From: a virus
Taxonomy: Duplodnaviria > Heunggongvirae > Uroviricota > Caudoviricetes
DNA: 9,420 nucleotides
Reading direction: 5' to 3' (one strand)
Virus record (IMG/VR): IMGVR_UViG_2695420763_000021
Location: 1-9,420 of that record
How positions within the stretch are numbered: the stretch's first letter is position 1; the number at the start of each line of letters is the position of its first letter. Below the pieces are notes generated by a model. The model was not told the DNA's origin. It saw only the letters and a list, made by a program, of their open reading frames with translations, and did no database searches. Position numbers and translations under genes: made by a program. Positions 1-8,764 of the stretch are shown here, in pieces.

Positions 1-1167
1 ATGAATAGAATCTATCGCGTGATATGGAATTGCACTCTACAGGTATTTCAGGCCTGCTCGGAATTAACTCGCAGGGCAGGTAAAACATCGACGGTTAATT
101 TGCGTAAATCCTCTGGACTGACAACGAAATTCAGTAGATTGACGCTGGGTGTTTTGCTGGCACTAAGCGGTTCAGCGTCTGGTGCAAGTCTGGAAGTTGA
201 TAATGATCAGATTACCAATATTGATACTGATGTTGCTTATGATGCCTACCTGGTTGGCTGGTATGGCACTGGAGTGCTTAATATTTTGGCTGGCGGTAAT
301 GCCTCCTTAACCACTATTACTACCAGCGTCATTGGCGCTAATGAGGACTCAGAGGGCACCGTTAATGTTTTGGGTGGCACCTGGCGATTGTATGATAGCG
401 GAAATAATGCAAGGCCTTTAAATGTGGGTCAATCCGGAACGGGGACGCTGAATATTAAACAGAAAGGTCACGTTGATGGAGGCTATTTAAGACTAGGTTC
501 CTCGACAGGAGGCGTCGGGACGGTCAATGTTGAGGGAGAGGACTCTGTTCTGACGACCGAATTATTCGAAATAGGGAGTTACGGTACGGGCTCATTAAAT
601 ATTACGGATAAGGGTTACGTCACGAGTTCAATAGTCGCCATTTTAGGCTATCAGGCGGGCAGTAATGGCCAGGTTGTCGTTGAAAAGGGCGGTGAGTGGC
701 TAATAAAAAATAACGATTCCTCAATTGAATTTCAAATTGGTAATCAAGGAACGGGGGAAGCGACTATTCGCGAGGGTGGACTGATTACGGCTGAAAACAC
801 GATTATCGGTGGCAATGCTACCGGTATCGGAACCCTGAATGTGCAGGATCAAGACTCTGTCATCACGGTACGCAGACTCTATAATGGATATTTCGGTAAT
901 GGCACACTCAATATTTCCAATAATGGACTAATTAATAACAAAGAATATTCATTAGTGGGCGTTCAGGACGGTTCCCACGGTGTCGTCAACGTGACCGATA
1001 AAGGGCATTGGAATTTCCTCGGAACGGGCGAAGCTTTCCGCTATATCTATATCGGTGATGCTGGCGACGGTGAACTTAATGTCTCGCGTGAAGGTAAAGT
1101 AGATTCGGGAATTATCACTGCGGGGATGAAAGAAACAGGCACAGGCAACATTACTGTTAAGGATAAG
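1..1167 (+). pseudogene. Autotransporter (type Va) adhesin, 5' fragment: extended signal peptide plus passenger-domain repeats, 3'-truncated by IS2
   Basis: ATG at 1. N-terminus MNRIYRVIWN...SELTRRAGK has the extended-signal-peptide pattern of enterobacterial autotransporters, followed by hydrophobic LTLGVLLALSGSASG and repeated GTGxLNI / GNGTLNI / GIGTLNV passenger motifs. The native frame ends at codon 389 (1165-1167) and then reads 28 codons into IS2 before the stop at 1252-1254. No beta-barrel translocator domain is present. Confidence 0.8.
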
Positions 1168-1208
1168 TGGATTTGCCCCTATATTTCCAGACATCTGTTA
1201 TCACTTAA
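1168..1208. repeat. IS2 right terminal inverted repeat (IRR)
   Basis: Imperfect inverted repeat partner of 2457-2498; begins TGGATTTGCCCC. Confidence 0.8.
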
Positions 1209-2084
1209 CCCATTACAAGCCCACTGCCGCAGATATTCCCGTGGCGAGCGATAACCCAGCGCACTATGCGGATGCCATTCGTTATAATGCTCGAACGCCT
1301 CTGCAAGGTTCTTTGCTGCCGTTAACCCGTCTGGTTTGGGCATGATACTGATGTAGTCACGCTTTATCGTTTTCACGAAGCTCTCTGCTATTCCGTTACT
1401 CTCCGGACTCCGCACCGCCGTGTTCTTCGGTTCAAGTCCCAACATCCGGGCGAACTGGCGTGTTTCATTAGCCCGGTAGCATGAACCATTATCCGTCAGC
1501 CACTCCACTGGAGACGACGGAAGATCGTTGCCGAAGCGGCGTTCCACCGCTCCCAGCATGACGTCCTGTACTGTTTCACTGTTGAAGCCGCCGGTAGTCA
1601 CCGCCCAGTGCAGTGCCTCACGATCACAGCAGTCCAGCGCGAACGTGACACGCAGTCTCTCTCCGTTATCACAGCAGAACTCGAACCCGTCAGAGCACCA
1701 TCGCTGATTGCTTTCTTTCACGGCCACTCTGCCTGTATGTGCCCGTTTCGATGGCGGTACAGTAGGTTTTCGCTCAAGCAACAGCGCATTCTGGCGCATG
1801 ATCCGGTAAACACGTTTGGCATTGATCGCAGGCATACCATCAAGTTCTGCCTGTCTGCGAAGCAGCGCCCATACCCGACGATAACCATACGTGGGCAGCT
1901 CTCCGATAACATGGTGTATACGGAGAAGCACATCCGTATCATCAGTGTGACGACTGCGGCGGCCATCCATCCAGTCATCGGTTCGTCTGAGAATGACGTA
2001 CAACTGCGCACGCGACACCCGGAGACAACGGCTGACTAAGCTTACTCCCCATCCCCGGGCAATAAGGGCGCGTGCGCTATCCAC
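1179..2084 (-). CDS. insD: IS2 transposase OrfB (InsD), DDE integrase-like catalytic domain
   Basis: 301-aa ORF inside IS2. The translation (e.g. ...[18 protein letters not shown]...[11 protein letters not shown]...[18 protein letters not shown]) matches IS2 InsD as recalled. Its 5' end overlaps orfA in the -1 frame. Confidence 0.9.
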
Positions 2085-2407
2085 TTTTTTGCCCGTCCAT
2101 ATTCAACGGCTTCTTTGAGGAGTTCATTTTCCATCGTTTTCTTGCCGAGCAGGCGCTGGAGTTCTTTAATCTGCTTCATGGCGGCAGCAAGTTCAGAGGC
2201 AGGAACAACCTGTTCTCCGGCGGCGACAGCAGTAAGACTTCCTTCCTGGTATTGCTTACGCCAGAGAAATAACTGGCTGGCTGCTACACCATGTTGCCGG
2301 GCAACGAGGGAGACCGTCATCCCCGGTTCAAAGCTCTGCTGAACAATTGCGATCTTTTCCTGTGTGGTACGCCGTCTGCGTTTCTCCGGCCCTAAGACAT
2401 CAATCAT
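2042..2407 (-). CDS. insC: IS2 transposase OrfA (InsC), HTH DNA-binding subunit
   Basis: Start placed at the internal ATG 2407..2405 ([24 protein letters not shown]...), giving 121 aa. The track ORF extends upstream to 2452 but that reads through the IRL-proximal sequence. Confidence 0.88.
2084..2090 (-). other. A6G slippery heptamer for programmed -1 ribosomal frameshift (OrfA to OrfAB fusion transposase)
   Basis: Minus strand reads AAAAAAG at 2090..2084, inside the orfA/orfB overlap and at the 5' end of the orfB frame. IS3-family elements, including IS2, use this motif. Confidence 0.6.
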
Positions 2408-2456
2408 CTGTTCTCCAATGACTAGTCTAAAAACTAGTATTAAGACTATCACTTAT

Positions 2457-2498
2457 TTAAGTGATACTGGTTGTCTGGAGATTCAGGGGGCCAGTCTA
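2457..2498. repeat. IS2 left terminal inverted repeat (IRL)
   Basis: Ends ...GGGGGCCAGTCTA at 2498; partner of 1168-1208. Confidence 0.8.
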
Positions 2499-3490: not shown

Positions 3491-3802
3491 TTATGCTTCA
3501 ACCTTATTTCTCAGCCATACACAAACCGGACCATCTTCAGTGTCATGAATGGAACCAATGAACCAGCCTTCACCTTCCGGGCGCTCCGGTTTCCAGGAGG
3601 CAATATCGGGACCATCTGCGTCCAGATTAAAATCATCTTCATCCATAGTTCTGATGGTCCATTGAAGATTATTTCCCTCCATCCATGCGTTAAACTCTTC
3701 CGTTGAAATATGTTCTCTACCATCACAGAATTTTTCATATTCAGGATGCGTCCAGCAGCCATATTCATCACGTACTACTGGTATTTCTTTAATTTCATTC
3801 AT
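3491..3802 (-). CDS. Hypothetical phage protein (103 aa), acidic, Trp-rich
   Basis: ATG 3802..3800 with GGGAGA about 7 nt upstream. Overlaps the upstream ORF's stop by 8 nt. The translation looks protein-like (MNEIKEIPVVRDEYGCWTHPEYEKF...). Confidence 0.65.
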   Translation of the reverse strand: MNEIKEIPVVRDEYGCWTHPEYEKFCDGREHISTEEFNAWMEGNNLQWTIRTMDEDDFNLDADGPDIASWKPERPEGEGWFIGSIHDTEDGPVCVWLRNKVEA

Positions 3803-6385: not shown

Positions 6386-6748
6386 TTAATGACCTGCTGC
6401 GCGGAGTTTTCCGTCAGGTTCACCGGCAAGAGTCAGTAATTGTCCCTGGTCTTCCTGCAGAATAGTCAGGCGACCACCGCGATTGACATACATCGGCGTT
6501 TCGGTGGTGTCTTCTTCGGAAATTTTCCCGCGGTTAGTCGGGCGAACATATGAGAGTTTGTGTTTTATTTTCACACGGTTCTCATCAAACGGTTCGATTT
6601 CCAGGTTGAGCGAGACCTTACCTTTGGTTTTCGTGTTCATCACACCGGAAGCGACTTCACTGAGAACTGCGCCGATTTTGGTTTCAAATACGCCGCCGTC
6701 CAGCTCCCCGATAAATGCCTGCACATCAGTACTGCGTTCGCTAGCCAT
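6386..6748 (-). CDS. yfdP: YfdP-like phage protein (121 aa), first gene of the pL operon
   Basis: Start chosen at ATG 6748..6746 (MASERSTDVQAF...) because AGGAG lies 7 nt upstream. The track's 182-aa version starts at an upstream GTG, and the extra N-terminal 62 codons are Cys/Arg/Pro-rich and look non-coding. Confidence 0.55.
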   Translation of the reverse strand: MASERSTDVQAFIGELDGGVFETKIGAVLSEVASGVMNTKTKGKVSLNLEIEPFDENRVKIKHKLSYVRPTNRGKISEEDTTETPMYVNRGGRLTILQEDQGQLLTLAGEPDGKLRAAGH

Positions 6749-6895: not shown

Positions 6896-7089
6896 GTACC
6901 AGCCGGAAGCAAGTGTACAAACTGGTACCGCCAAAGCAGTGGCTGTTGTGGTGACCGGTGCTGATCTCCGGCTTGCGGTTATTTCAGACTCTCACGGGCG
7001 TTTAATTGCCCCGCCGAACAGCTCTTTTCCGCAATAGCTGCAATGTCTTTCGCGCATCAGCCTGCGCATTCACCACAACTCTAAAAACA

Positions 7090-7119
7090 AATGTAGGATA
7101 TCCAACATGTAAGTGTCAA
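7090..7119 (-). promoter_or_regulatory. pL-like early-left promoter (-35 TTGACA 7119..7114, 18-nt spacer, -10 TACATT 7095..7090)
   Basis: Minus strand reads TTGACActtacatgttggatatccTACATT, nearly identical to the pR module at 7894-7923. The -10 is embedded in operator OL-a. Confidence 0.6.
7091..7108. promoter_or_regulatory. Repressor operator OL-a (18-bp palindrome ATGTAGGATATCCAACAT)
   Basis: Exact reverse complement of OR-c (7905-7922). Half-site consensus ATGTWGGAT. Overlaps the pL -10. Confidence 0.65.
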
Positions 7120-7125
7120 GAGTTT

Positions 7126-7143
7126 ATGTTGGTTATCCTACAT
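7126..7143. promoter_or_regulatory. Repressor operator OL-b (ATGTTGGTTATCCTACAT)
   Basis: 17 of 18 matches to the operator consensus; lies just upstream of the pL -35. Confidence 0.6.
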
Positions 7144-7160
7144 AAAAAGATAGGCTCATA

Positions 7161-7185
7161 AAAAAACCGGGGATACCCCGGTTTT
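7161..7185 (-). terminator. Rho-independent terminator downstream of the repressor gene (bidirectional hairpin)
   Basis: AAAAAA-CCGGGG-ATA-CCCCGG-TTTT. On the minus strand a GC stem is followed by UUUUUU, 20 nt after the repressor stop and before OL/pL. Confidence 0.7.
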
Positions 7186-7205
7186 GCGATAGTGAGGAAG
7201 ATGTG

Positions 7206-7859
7206 TCAAAAATCCATTATTACTTGTTTGACAAGACCAACTATTCTGCAGTTTTCACCGCATTCAATAGTTTTATAGTTAGGATTTAGTGGGACGAGAT
7301 ACCTGTTCGGCCAGTCCTCAACAAATTTTTTGAGTGTCGCTTCTTGCCCACCATTGATATGGGCAACAACGATTTTTCCGTTAATACACTCTGTATCAAT
7401 AATATCTGGCTCTACGATAACGATAGAACCTTCTGGTATCGATGGTGAGCCGAGGGGATTGGTCATTGAATCACCACGGACCCGTAGTGCAAATGCCATT
7501 TCTGATACAAGGGCGGTAGTATAAACCCACTCTTCAGCATCTTCTTTCCTGACACCAGGCTCCGTCATTGTCCATGAACCCGCCTGAACCCACGAGATGA
7601 GGGGGACTTTTTTAACTGCGAATATTTCAGGTTTTAGATTTATCTTTGGTTCAGGCGAGCCTTTTCCGCTAACAAGCCACAGAGGATCGCATTTAAGTGC
7701 GTTGGCTAGGGCTTGAAGGTTGGCTCCATTTGGTTGGTAGTCGTCCTTTTCCCATCCAGTAACCGTGACACGGTTCACACCAGTCAAATCAGCCAGTGCT
7801 TGTTGTGTCAGGTTCAGTTCTTTTCGCCTTTGGCGAATACGATCACTCATGTTCATCAT
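7206..7859 (-). CDS. CI-type prophage repressor: N-terminal HTH (XRE family) plus C-terminal S24 LexA-like autopeptidase
   Basis: 217 aa. HTH segment LTQQALADLTGVNRVTVTGWE. Ala-Gly cleavage-site context VQAG (as in lambda CI). Catalytic Ser in RVRGDSM and Lys in ATLKKF. The start ATG lies within operator OR-a, so the transcript is leaderless or nearly so, as for lambda pRM. Confidence 0.85.
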   Translation of the reverse strand: MMNMSDRIRQRRKELNLTQQALADLTGVNRVTVTGWEKDDYQPNGANLQALANALKCDPLWLVSGKGSPEPKINLKPEIFAVKKVPLISWVQAGSWTMTEPGVRKEDAEEWVYTTALVSEMAFALRVRGDSMTNPLGSPSIPEGSIVIVEPDIIDTECINGKIVVAHINGGQEATLKKFVEDWPNRYLVPLNPNYKTIECGENCRIVGLVKQVIMDF

Positions 7860-7875
7860 GTAGGCAATCCTACCA
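7858..7875. promoter_or_regulatory. Repressor operator OR-a (ATGTAGGCAATCCTACCA), overlapping the repressor start codon
   Basis: 15 of 18 matches to the palindromic consensus. Confidence 0.5.
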
Positions 7876-7882
7876 CATGCTC

Positions 7883-7900
7883 ATGTAGGATTCTTGACAT
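7883..7900. promoter_or_regulatory. Repressor operator OR-b (ATGTAGGATTCTTGACAT), overlapping the pR -35
   Basis: Perfect left half-site ATGTAGGAT; the right half is degenerate and contains TTGACA. Confidence 0.5.
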
Positions 7901-7923
7901 TGGCATGTTGGATATCCTACATT
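7894..7923 (+). promoter_or_regulatory. pR-like early-right promoter (-35 TTGACA 7894-7899, 18-nt spacer, -10 TACATT 7918-7923)
   Basis: Consensus -35, 18-bp spacer, 4 of 6 match in the -10. Lies about 30 nt upstream of the cro-like gene, whose RBS is GGGAGA at 7944-7949. Confidence 0.6.
7905..7922. promoter_or_regulatory. Repressor operator OR-c (ATGTTGGATATCCTACAT), overlapping the pR -10
   Basis: Perfect 18-bp palindrome-type site; reverse complement of OL-a. Confidence 0.65.
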
Positions 7924-7954
7924 TCTGCTTAACGTAATTTAACGGGAGACAGAA

Positions 7955-8152
7955 ATGCGGAAATCCGACGTGATTAATTATTTCGGCGGAGTTTGTAAAA
8001 CCGCCGAAGCCCTAGGTATTAAGCATCCGTCTGTTTCAGAGTGGCCTGAGATTATTCCTGAAGGCCGAGCGTACCAGTTAGAAAAAATTACTAACGGGAA
8101 ACTGAAAGTTGACGTGTCTTTATATCAAAAGACTAACAGTGCTGCGGCATAA
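7955..8152 (+). CDS. Cro-like HTH regulator (65 aa)
   Basis: First gene after pR and divergent from the repressor. INYFGG...KTAEALGIKHPSVSEW resembles lambda Cro ([25 protein letters not shown]). Confidence 0.75.
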   Translation: MRKSDVINYFGGVCKTAEALGIKHPSVSEWPEIIPEGRAYQLEKITNGKLKVDVSLYQKTNSAAA

Positions 8153-8179
8153 AAACACCACAGAAATGAGGAATTAACC

Positions 8180-8764
8180 GTGGGTAAAGAACCTGAATGG
8201 AAAGTTGATAAACAACCAGCATGGCTGGTGGCAGCAATACGAAGAACGATTGCTGATTTACCTCATGGCTATGAGGAAGCAGCAGAAATTCTTGGTTTGT
8301 ATAAATCTGATGATATCACCCCAGCAAAAGATCAATTGCATAACAGACTGCGTAGCGGTGGGGATCAAATTTTTCCACTTGAGTGGGCCATGGTTTTACA
8401 GGATGCCAGTGGTACCAGGCATGTAACAGATGCAATAGCCCGTCGTAGTAATGGGGTGTTTGTGCCGCTGGTGGTCATTGATGACATTGACAATGGTGAC
8501 ATTAATCAGCGGCTGATGGAGTCAATAGAATGGATTGGCAAGCATTCCCAGTACTTACGCAAGGCAACTGCTGATGGAGTTATTGACCAGGCTGAGCGTG
8601 AGCAAATCGAAGAGAACAGCTACCAAGTAATGGCGAAGTGGCAGGAGCATTTAACACTGTTATTTCGTGTTTTTTGTGCGCCGGAAAAGAGTAACGCCCG
8701 CGAGTGTGCAGCTCCGGGCGTCGTGGCGTCGATTGCTTCTGGTTGTGGAGAAACTAACGCATGA
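8180..8764 (+). CDS. CII-like phage regulatory protein (194 aa; possibly the phage CII/CP76-type family)
   Basis: GTG start 8180 with GAGGA 7 nt upstream. It sits directly after cro as cII does in lambdoid phages. The family assignment is from memory of CP76-type CII proteins, not a verified alignment. Confidence 0.5.

What the first reader, a model, noticed from the sequence alone, without database searches (positions are those of the whole stretch)
7085..7930. Compact immunity switch built from a duplicated promoter-operator module with an 18-bp palindromic operator
I found five operator-like sites with half-site ATGTWGGAT: OL-a 7091-7108, OL-b 7126-7143, OR-a 7858-7875, OR-b 7883-7900 and OR-c 7905-7922. 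OL-a and OR-c are exact reverse complements. The roughly 30-bp pL and pR cores (TTGACA, 18-nt spacer, TACATT, with the operator inside the spacer and -10) are near-identical mirror images. The repressor gene starts inside OR-a and ends at a strong terminator just before OL. This gives a testable operator consensus and defines the immunity specificity of this prophage remnant.
Basis: seen in the sequence. Interest (0 to 1): 0.55.

Follow-up and report, generated by a model that had tools for sequence, protein, structure and literature searches.

The report
P22-like prophage immunity switch operators
This is an ordinary but intact lambda/P22-type prophage on-off switch (repressor gene, cro gene, two mirror-image promoters and five repressor-binding sites); its binding-site sequence appears undescribed, and it also controls some Shiga-toxin phages.

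Summary
OL-a is the exact reverse complement of OR-c. pL and pR are both TTGACA-18-TACATT with the operator inside.

The sites flank a 217-aa HTH + S24 (lambda CI / P22 C2-like) repressor gene. That gene ends at a hairpin terminator and faces a P22-Cro-family gene.

In 27 related loci with repressors 49-100% identical (E. coli Stx phages, mEp390, Enterobacter, Pantoea, Erwinia, Morganella):
- Site layout is kept: 35 bp apart at OL (33 in Morganella), 22 and 25/26 bp at OR.
- Outer operator bases are kept while the gaps between sites drift.
- The recognition helix GVNRVTVTGWE is kept. P22 C2 (45% identical) has a different helix and different operators.

So this is a standard lambdoid immunity cassette (about 7083-8156) and a new specificity member of the P22/21 group.

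Refinements:
- The contacted half-site is 7 bp with an A/T-rich 4-bp centre.
- OR-b is a weak site that is lost in some relatives.
- OL has only two sites.
- OR-a's invariant off-consensus bases form a TGn extended -10 placed to give a leaderless repressor mRNA (inferred).

No binding was tested. Interest is low to moderate.

The parts
7083..8156 (.). Exchangeable immunity cassette (OL, terminator, repressor gene, OR, cro)
   Evidence: 98.4% identity to mEp460 ends at window 7082. 98.4% identity to mEp460_4F5 resumes at 8157. That phage carries a 41%-identical repressor and different operators in between.
7091..7108 (.). OL-a operator, 14/14 match; lies in the spacer and -10 of pL
   Evidence: Outer 7-mers are 0.91-1.00 conserved in 15 diverged relatives.
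7090..7119 (-). pL: -35 TTGACA (7119-7114), 18-nt spacer, -10 TACATT (7095-7090); predicted start near 7083
   Evidence: Promoter scan 10/12. Hexamers are invariant in alignment A2. The start site is inferred.
7126..7143 (.). OL-b operator, 14/14 match, 35 bp from OL-a, upstream of the pL -35
   Evidence: Spacing is 35 bp in 26 of 27 loci and 33 bp in Morganella. The centre 4 bp vary freely.
7160..7185 (-). Intrinsic terminator of the repressor gene (stem 7167-7172/7176-7181, T7 run)
   Evidence: -17 kcal/mol, z = -3.0. Three stem pairs show compensatory changes and no core pair is broken across 10 relatives.
7206..7859 (-). Repressor gene, 217 aa, HTH + S24 autoprotease (Ala93-Gly94, Ser131, Lys177/178)
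   Evidence: Pfam. Lambda cI alignment across the AG site and the GDSM/KK motifs. These columns are invariant in A3. The protein is 100% identical to the cI of phage vB_EcoM-720R4.
7858..7875 (.). OR-a operator (2 mismatches), overlapping the repressor start codon
   Evidence: The outer 7-mers are invariant in alignment A1, and the site was recovered at 2 mismatches in all 27 loci scanned.
7867..7875 (-). Candidate PRM extended -10, TGgTAGGAT, 7 nt upstream of the A of the repressor ATG (leaderless mRNA)
   Evidence: Read from sequence. TGGTAGGAT is invariant in 27 loci. No transcript data, so this is inferred.
7883..7900 (.). OR-b, weak operator (3 mismatches): perfect left half, right half coincides with the pR -35
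   Evidence: The left half is 0.88 conserved against 0.62-0.67 in the flanking gaps. It falls below 3 mismatches in 11 of 27 loci.
7894..7923 (+). pR: -35 TTGACA (7894-7899), 18-nt spacer, -10 TACATT (7918-7923)
   Evidence: Promoter scan 10/12. Hexamers are invariant except in mEp390.
7905..7922 (.). OR-c operator, 14/14, exact reverse complement of OL-a; lies in the spacer and -10 of pR
   Evidence: Identical in 14 of the 15 aligned relatives.
7955..8152 (+). cro, 65 aa, P22_Cro family
   Evidence: Pfam 7.6e-22. PDB 1rzs 7e-12.

Best explanation
The region is the immunity (immC-type) switch of a lambdoid temperate phage, of the P22/phage 21 repressor lineage but with its own specificity.

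Proposed mechanism (binding, cooperativity, cleavage and Cro action are all inferred by homology):
1. Dimers of the 217-aa repressor recognise 18-bp two-fold symmetric operators, ATGTWGG-(A/T-rich N4)-CCWACAT.
2. The two perfect sites, OR-c and OL-a, sit between the -35 and -10 and cover the -10 of pR and pL. Occupancy there shuts off both early operons: cro-ymfL rightward and yfdP/Q/R leftward.
3. OL-b (35 bp away) and the weak OR-b (22 bp away, over the pR -35) are auxiliary sites. They are filled cooperatively.
4. OR-a overlaps the repressor's own start codon and its probable promoter. It gives negative autoregulation and is the probable target through which Cro turns the repressor off.
5. 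The repressor transcript ends at a hairpin terminator, so it does not read into pL.
6. Induction is by RecA-stimulated self-cleavage at Ala93-Gly94 (Ser131/Lys dyad).

Shown here: the anatomy, its statistical non-randomness, its conservation and co-variation with the recognition helix, and its cassette-like exchange.
For: Site statistics.

Specificity of the pattern:
- In a complete 50-kb phage with this cassette (Lys8385Vzw), the pattern at up to 2 mismatches hits only the OL/OR sites.
- In a scan of one genome per species, the exact OR-c 18-mer gave 14 hits. The 4 Enterobacterales hits each carry the full cluster around a repressor homologue. The 10 hits in unrelated taxa are isolated singletons.

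Phylogenetic footprint: outer 7-mers 0.85-1.00 conserved, gaps 0.50-0.70. G3 and T4 are invariant in 29 unique sites.

Recognition helix: GVNRVTVTGWE is constant from 100% down to 49% repressor identity. P22 C2 at 45% identity has GVSNVAISQWE and ATTTAAG-type operators.

Operator logic: P22 operators have contacted positions 2-7/12-17 and non-contacted positions 8-11 (PMC4267663). The conservation pattern here is the same.

Other support:
- Protein families and solved relatives.
- Terminator covariation.
- Cassette junctions.
- Lys8385Vzw, which carries the same region at 99.7% identity, is mitomycin C-inducible.
Against: - No binding, footprint, transcript-start or immunity data exist for this repressor. 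No paper in the library holds the operator strings.
- OR-b's right half is indistinguishable from the pR -35, and its left half degenerates to AGGTAAG in about a third of relatives.
- 933W shows that a consensus need not be the best binding site and that cooperativity cannot be assumed (PMC3317979).
- The geometry does not reproduce lambda's activating position. OR-b would be centred near -32 from the only plausible PRM start.
Confidence: 0.85

Rival explanations
1. Four-operator switch. OL-a, OL-b, OR-a and OR-c are the functional sites. OR-b is not an operator. Its conservation comes from the pR -35 and from a half-site-like sequence with another role, for example upstream elements of the divergent promoters.
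For: OR-b has 3 mismatches, all in the half that is TTGACA. In 11 of 27 loci it falls beyond 3 mismatches (AGGTAAG...), while the other four sites persist. OL has no counterpart at the 22-bp position.
Against: The left half (7883-7889) is 0.88 conserved against 0.62-0.67 for the gaps on either side, and it keeps the invariant G3/T4. The 22-bp and 25/26-bp spacings equal those of the three P22 OR sites as I delimited them on the P22-immC sequence of phage Phi75 (26 and 22). Weak middle sites filled by cooperativity are normal in lambdoid phages (PMC3317979).
Confidence: 0.25
2. The repeats are relics of a duplication or gene conversion between the two promoter regions and have no protein-binding role.
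For: The pL and pR cores are 85% identical over 40 nt, as a recent duplication would be.
Against: In relatives the 4-5 nt between the -35 and the operator differ between pL and pR and between lineages, while operator and hexamers stay fixed. OL-b and OR-a are not part of the duplicated core yet carry the same motif. OL-b appears in either orientation of the A/T position. The sites co-vary with the recognition helix.
Confidence: 0.03
3. The sites are bound by a different regulator (host LexA, as the public 'LexA family' annotation might suggest, or only Cro) and not by the S24 repressor.
For: Public records name the repressor 'LexA family protein'. Cro proteins do share operators with their repressors.
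Against: No SOS box (CTGT-N8-ACAG, up to 1 mismatch) lies anywhere in 7000-8200. The motif tracks the phage repressor's helix across genera. The N-terminal domain is homologous to the P22 c2 DNA-binding domain, which binds 18-bp sites of the same design.
Confidence: 0.04

Closest known systems
Bacteriophage P22 immC (c2 repressor, Cro, OR1-3 / OL1-3) and its near-twin phage 21
   Same: - The repressor N-terminal domain is homologous (E 4e-14 to 1adr/2r1j; 44-46% full-length identity).
- Cro is homologous to P22 Cro.
- Operators are 18-bp and symmetric, with conserved positions 1-7/12-18 and a variable A/T-rich centre at 8-11.
- OR centre spacings of 25/26 and 22 bp compare with 26 and 22 in P22.
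- The repressor start codon abuts the promoter-distal OR site in both.
   Different: - Recognition helix is NRVTVTGWE here and SNVAISQWE in P22.
- Half-site is ATGTWGG here and ATTTAAG in P22, so the two are predicted to be heteroimmune.
- pR is shifted about 15 bp relative to the operator array. One perfect site covers the spacer and -10, and the weak site covers the -35.
- OL has two sites 35 bp apart, where P22 has six sites in all.
- No sieB/other genes lie between the repressor gene and OL.
Phage lambda cI/cro switch (OR1-3, OL1-3, PR, PL, PRM)
   Same: - Gene order is pL/OL - repressor - OR - cro - cII-like.
- The repressor is an S24 autoprotease, with the Ala-Gly site and Ser/Lys aligned to lambda cI.
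- The pL/pR promoter-operator cores are mirrored (own knowledge of lambda).
- A repressor mRNA starting at its AUG is possible, as at lambda PRM (own knowledge; PMC8630535).
   Different: - Operators are 18 bp here and 17 bp in lambda, and the sequences are unrelated.
- No rexAB.
- OL-OR distance is about 0.8 kb here and about 2.4 kb in lambda (own knowledge).
- OL has two sites.
- No operator is centred near -42 of the candidate PRM.
Stx phage 933W repressor/operators
   Same: It is an Stx-converting lambdoid phage whose OL lacks a third site (PMC3317979).
   Different: The repressor is only about 35% identical (VT2-Sakai/933W-type hits) and the operators differ. 933W repressor is reported not to bind cooperatively. 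Nothing is known on that point here.
CP-933P PaaR2/YdaS switch of E. coli O157:H7
   Same: It has a compact divergent intergenic region (97 bp there, 95 bp here), 18-bp palindromes overlapping both promoters, and an experimentally leaderless repressor mRNA (PMC8630535).
   Different: According to that paper, PaaR2 heads the paaR2-paaA2-parE2 toxin-antitoxin locus. Its repeat consensus is GTTTAGTAA.
Phage mEp390 immunity region (closest deposited, diverged relative)
   Same: The repressor is 60% identical with an identical recognition helix. OR-a is identical 18/18. Spacings and promoter-operator layout are the same.
   Different: Its OR-c and OL sites carry GTAAGA variants. pR is TTGACC/TACTAT. 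No paper in the library holds these operator strings.

Membership tests
Lambdoid CI/Cro immunity switch | Divergently transcribed repressor and cro genes separated by a short multi-operator region (OR) | tested here: met
   Repressor 7206-7859 (-), cro 7955-8152 (+), 95-bp intergenic region with three sites.
Lambdoid CI/Cro immunity switch | Repressor has an N-terminal HTH domain plus a C-terminal S24 (LexA-like) self-cleaving domain with an Ala-Gly site and a Ser/Lys dyad | tested here: met
   Pfam HTH_3 1e-15 and Peptidase_S24 4e-25. VQAGS, GDSMT and LKKF align to lambda cI and are invariant in the family.
Lambdoid CI/Cro immunity switch | Second operator region (OL) overlapping a leftward early promoter beyond the 3' end of the repressor gene | tested here: met
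   OL-a lies inside pL and OL-b lies upstream of it. Both are conserved.
Lambdoid CI/Cro immunity switch | Three operators in each of OR and OL | tested here: not met
   OR has three, one of them weak. OL has only two in all 27 loci. 933W also lacks OL3, so this feature is not universal in the family.
Lambdoid CI/Cro immunity switch | Repressor and Cro bind the operators; a lysogen is immune to phages with the same cassette | not testable with these tools
   Needs EMSA or footprinting and superinfection tests. Only indirect support: operators co-vary with the recognition helix.
Lambdoid CI/Cro immunity switch | Maintenance promoter (PRM) stimulated by repressor at the middle OR site | tested here: inconclusive
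   No consensus -35/-10 pair is conserved on the repressor strand. The only conserved candidate is TGgTAGGAT in OR-a. OR-b would then be centred at about -32, not at the lambda activating position.
P22 c2-type repressor-operator recognition | 18-bp two-fold symmetric site, contacted positions 2-7/12-17 conserved, non-contacted centre 8-11 variable | tested here: met
   Information content is 1.0-2.0 bits at positions 1-7 and 0.6-0.7 at positions 8-9 over 29 unique sites. P22 rule from PMC4267663.
P22 c2-type repressor-operator recognition | Sequence homology of the DNA-binding domain to the P22 c2 N-terminal domain | tested here: met
   phmmer E 4e-14 to 1adr and 6e-14 to 2r1j/3jxb over residues 4-66.
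P22 c2-type repressor-operator recognition | Same specificity as P22 (ATTTAAG half-site; helix SNVAISQWE), that is, homoimmune with P22 or 21 | tested here: not met
   The half-site is ATGTWGG and the helix is NRVTVTGWE. This is a distinct immunity type.
Host LexA regulon (SOS box) | CTGT-N8-ACAG box in the regulatory region | tested here: not met
   No match with up to 1 mismatch in 7000-8200.

The most novel reading that the evidence does not exclude
The maintenance promoter of this switch is not lambda-like. It would be a -35-less extended -10 promoter (TGgTAGGAT, 7875-7867 on the - strand) built into the OR-a half-site, firing 7 nt downstream at the A of the ATG, so the repressor mRNA is leaderless.

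The two invariant 'errors' of OR-a relative to the operator consensus (..ACCA in place of ..ACAT) are what create the TG motif. They are kept in all 27 loci, down to 49% protein identity.

No operator sits at an activating position. Repressor synthesis in the lysogen would then be stimulated only indirectly, by silencing the overlapping strong pR, and limited by OR-a/OR-b occupancy. The same AGGA would serve as the Shine-Dalgarno sequence for establishment transcripts coming from upstream.
Probability: 0.3. Interest if true: 0.4.

Novelty: new member of a known kind. Interest (0 to 1): 0.3.

Why it matters
- It gives a concrete, comparatively validated operator consensus (ATGTWGG-N4-CCWACAT) and a cassette definition (about 1.07 kb) for an immunity type found in 140 of 5426 complete E. 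coli genomes.
- The same cassette occurs in a mitomycin C-inducible Stx1 phage and in deposited Stx2c-converting phage genomes.
- The published description of Lys8385Vzw states that CI, Cro and CII are absent from it. They are present, annotated as 'LexA family repressor', 'hypothetical protein' and 'DNA-binding protein'.
- An intact cassette in an IS-truncated prophage should still make its host immune to such Stx phages.
- The family offers a natural specificity variant of the structurally well-studied P22 c2 repressor. Helix changes are N32R, A34T, I35V, S36T and Q37G. Operator changes are T3G and A6G. This is useful for studies of the recognition code.
- None of this changes the current understanding of phage switches.

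Tried and rejected
- Rfam on the whole window: no family matched.
- SOS-box search: nothing in the region.
- The terminator scan did not list the repressor terminator. I suspect this is because A/T pairs lengthen its stem and shorten the T tail. Folding and covariation were used to test it.
- Scan for a conventional -35/-10 maintenance promoter on the repressor strand across 15 relatives: no conserved candidate. This led to the extended -10 idea, which stays unproven.
- Count of the 9-mer with 1 mismatch is not significant window-wide (7 against 4.4 expected). Only exact matches and full-site searches are informative.
- Literature search for the operator strings and for P22 PRM/leaderless data: no paper with the strings. 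Nothing usable on the P22 PRM start. Figures and many older papers are not in the library, so prior description cannot be excluded.
- The exact 18-mer scan of one genome per species mostly returned chance singletons (10 of 14). These served as a control and were not new members.
- A third OL site at the 22-bp position was looked for by eye and with the pattern. It is absent.
Full report
**1. Observation**

- OL-a: ATGTAGGATATCCAACAT, 7091-7108
- OL-b: ATGTTGGTTATCCTACAT, 7126-7143
- OR-a: ATGTAGGCAATCCTACCA, 7858-7875
- OR-b: ATGTAGGATTCTTGACAT, 7883-7900
- OR-c: ATGTTGGATATCCTACAT, 7905-7922, the exact reverse complement of OL-a

Statistics:
- The exact half-site ATGTWGGAT occurs six times in the 9420-base window, all in these two intergenic regions. 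Expected: 0.17.
- With one mismatch allowed the window-wide count is not significant.
- The 18-mer with up to 3 mismatches gives 3 hits against 0.01 expected.
- The refined pattern ATGTWGG-N4-CCWACAT returns four sites at up to 2 mismatches and exactly the five reader sites at up to 3.

The promoter scan picks TTGACA-18-TACATT on both strands as the two best sites. The repeat finder reports a 40-nt, 85% inverted repeat joining them.

The hairpin between the repressor stop codon and OL-b folds at -17 kcal/mol, z = -3.0.

**2. What the genes are**

- The 217-aa ORF on the - strand has HTH_3 and Peptidase_S24 domains.
- The 65-aa ORF to its right is in the P22_Cro family.
- The next ORF is CII/YmfL-like.
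- Against solved structures, the repressor matches full-length lambda cI (7e-25). The alignment runs through the VQAG cleavage site, the GDSM serine and the KK lysine.
- Its N-terminal domain matches P22 c2 (4e-14).
- Cro matches P22 Cro 1rzs.
- To the left lie yfdP/yfdQ/yfdR-type early-left genes.

**3. Where else it occurs**

The 1.2-kb region is 99.5-99.8% identical in:
- the Stx1-converting phage Lys8385Vzw;
- three deposited Stx2c-converting phage genomes;
- phages vB_EcoM-720R4 and SKA5;
- 140 of 5426 complete E. coli genomes.

Lys8385Vzw carries stxAB and was obtained by mitomycin C induction. That fits an SOS-cleavable repressor. The paper describing it says CI, Cro, CII, CIII and N are absent from this phage. 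At least the first three have counterparts here under uninformative annotations.

**4. Comparative test**

Sources of diverged relatives:
- IMG/VR gave loci with repressors 75-92% identical.
- GenBank phage mEp390 is 60% identical.
- A scan of one genome per species for the exact OR-c 18-mer gave 14 hits.
  - Four are in Enterobacterales: Morganella morganii, Enterobacter soli, Pantoea brenneri and Erwinia tracheiphila. Each carries the whole cluster around a repressor homologue.
  - Ten are in unrelated taxa. Each is an isolated single match, as chance predicts.

In all 27 loci the layout is the same:
- Two OL sites 35 bp apart (33 bp in Morganella).
- OR-a and OR-c 47-48 bp apart.
- Where it scores, OR-b lies 22 bp from OR-c.

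Alignments of 15 non-redundant OR and OL regions show:

| Feature | Majority fraction |
|---|---|
| Outer 7-mers of the sites | 0.85-1.00 |
| Promoter hexamers | 0.99-1.00 |
| Gaps between sites | 0.50-0.70 |
| Central four bases, OL-a | 0.88 |
| Central four bases, OL-b | 0.68 |

Over 29 unique sites, G3 and T4 are invariant, and positions 8-9 carry little information but are A/T-rich. This is the P22 rule: contacted positions 2-7/12-17, non-contacted positions 8-11 read indirectly and favouring A/T (PMC4267663).

The helix-turn-helix segment GVNRVTVTGWE is unchanged from 100% down to 49% overall identity. P22 c2 is equally distant overall (45%). It has GVSNVAISQWE and ATTTAAG-type operators. 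Operator sequence therefore follows the recognition helix and not overall relatedness. Without biochemistry, this is the strongest available evidence that these are the repressor's sites.

The terminator stem shows three pairs with compensatory changes and no broken core pair.

**5. Cassette borders**

- Identity to mEp460 (98.4%) runs from the yfdQ/yfdP genes to window 7082 and stops there. This is the predicted pL start.
- Identity to mEp460_4F5 (98.4%) resumes at 8157, five bases after the cro stop.
- Between those points that phage has a 41%-identical repressor, another cro and different operators.

So 7083-8156 is a self-contained, exchangeable immunity module of 1074 bp: OL, terminator, repressor, OR, cro. 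'Compact' is fair. 'Duplicated promoter-operator module' describes what lambda's PL/OL1 and PR/OR1 also are (own knowledge).

**6. Mechanism**

Shown: anatomy, conservation, co-variation.

Inferred by homology:
- Repressor dimers at OR-c and OL-a occlude the -10 and spacer of pR and pL.
- OL-b and the weak OR-b add cooperativity.
- OR-a, which overlaps the repressor ATG, gives autoregulation and a Cro target.
- RecA-stimulated cleavage at Ala93-Gly94 induces the prophage.

OR-b is the weakest claim. Its three mismatches all lie in the half that is the pR -35. Its left half decays to AGGTAAG in 11 of 27 loci. It still keeps G3/T4 and is better conserved than its flanks. I delimited the three P22 OR sites on the P22-immC sequence of phage Phi75, and the 25/26 + 22 bp geometry here equals their 26 + 22 spacing.

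Differences from P22 and lambda:
- Only two OL sites. 933W also lacks OL3.
- pR is shifted about 15 bp relative to the operator array.

**7. An inference beyond the finding**

On the repressor strand, 7875-7857 reads TGGTAGGATTGCCTACATG.
- TGg-TAGGAT is an extended -10 element. It lies 7 nt upstream of the A of the start codon, with a C/A (pyrimidine/purine) step at the start.
- OR-a's two departures from the operator consensus are exactly what make the TG. They are invariant in all 27 loci, as is the 2-nt overlap of the ATG with the operator.
- No conventional -35/-10 pair is conserved.

This suggests a leaderless repressor mRNA. That is known for lambda PRM (own knowledge) and was shown for PaaR2 of CP-933P (PMC8630535). 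No operator would sit at a lambda-like activating position. This is unproven and needs TSS mapping.

**8. Context and verdict**

The window's left 2.5 kb holds a truncated ESPR autotransporter gene and an IS2-like element (terminal inverted repeats 1176-1208/2457-2489) abutting the early-left genes. 'Remnant' is therefore plausible for the left arm. The repressor itself is 100% identical to that of an isolated phage.

No SOS box, Rfam family or extra operator copy was found.

It is a new specificity member of the well-known P22/lambda class of immunity switches. It has practical value for Stx-phage immunity typing and for recognition-code studies, but it is not surprising.

Noticed in passing
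window 1-2494: An ESPR-signal autotransporter ORF (1-1254) runs into an IS3-family element. The element has orfA 2042-2452 and orfB 1179-2084 (both on the - strand) and 33-nt terminal inverted repeats at 1176-1208/2457-2489, so it is IS2-like and about 1.3 kb. It directly abuts the prophage early-left genes, so the prophage's left arm (integrase side) seems to have been lost.
   Followed up: partly
window 7000-7082: An 80-bp stretch just left of OL is 98-100% identical in many otherwise different phages: mEp460, Stx2a phages, IME207, and the plp region of P1-type phages and plasmids. The mosaic junction falls at 7082/7083, the predicted pL start. About 340 nt separate pL from the first sizeable leftward gene (yfdP, ATG at 6748), and no N-like ORF is obvious.
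   Followed up: partly
window 8153-8160; L101 1801: The right mosaic junction lies 5 nt after the cro stop codon. mEp460_4F5 has the same ymfL-like gene (98.4%) but a different repressor/cro/operator cassette (repressor 41% identical).
   Followed up: yes
L085 (MT225100.1) 32687-34245: The paper on Stx1 phage Lys8385Vzw (PMC7946995) states that CI, Cro, CII, CIII and N are absent. The genome in fact carries this repressor/cro/CII-like trio, annotated as 'LexA family repressor', 'hypothetical protein' and 'DNA-binding protein'.
   Followed up: yes
L099 3275-3924 (Erwinia tracheiphila): The repressor homologue matches in two frames that join at 3760, so it is probably a frameshifted pseudogene. 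Its OL and OR sites are still intact.
   Followed up: no
window 7867-7875 (- strand): OR-a's invariant off-consensus end gives TGgTAGGAT, an extended -10 motif 7 nt from the repressor ATG. The AGGA inside it is also at Shine-Dalgarno distance (8 nt) from that ATG.
   Followed up: partly
window 7097-7102 and 7911-7916: The centres of OL-a and OR-c are GATATC (an EcoRV site). OR-c's centre, ATAT, is invariant in all 15 aligned relatives, unlike the centres of OL-a and OL-b.
   Followed up: no
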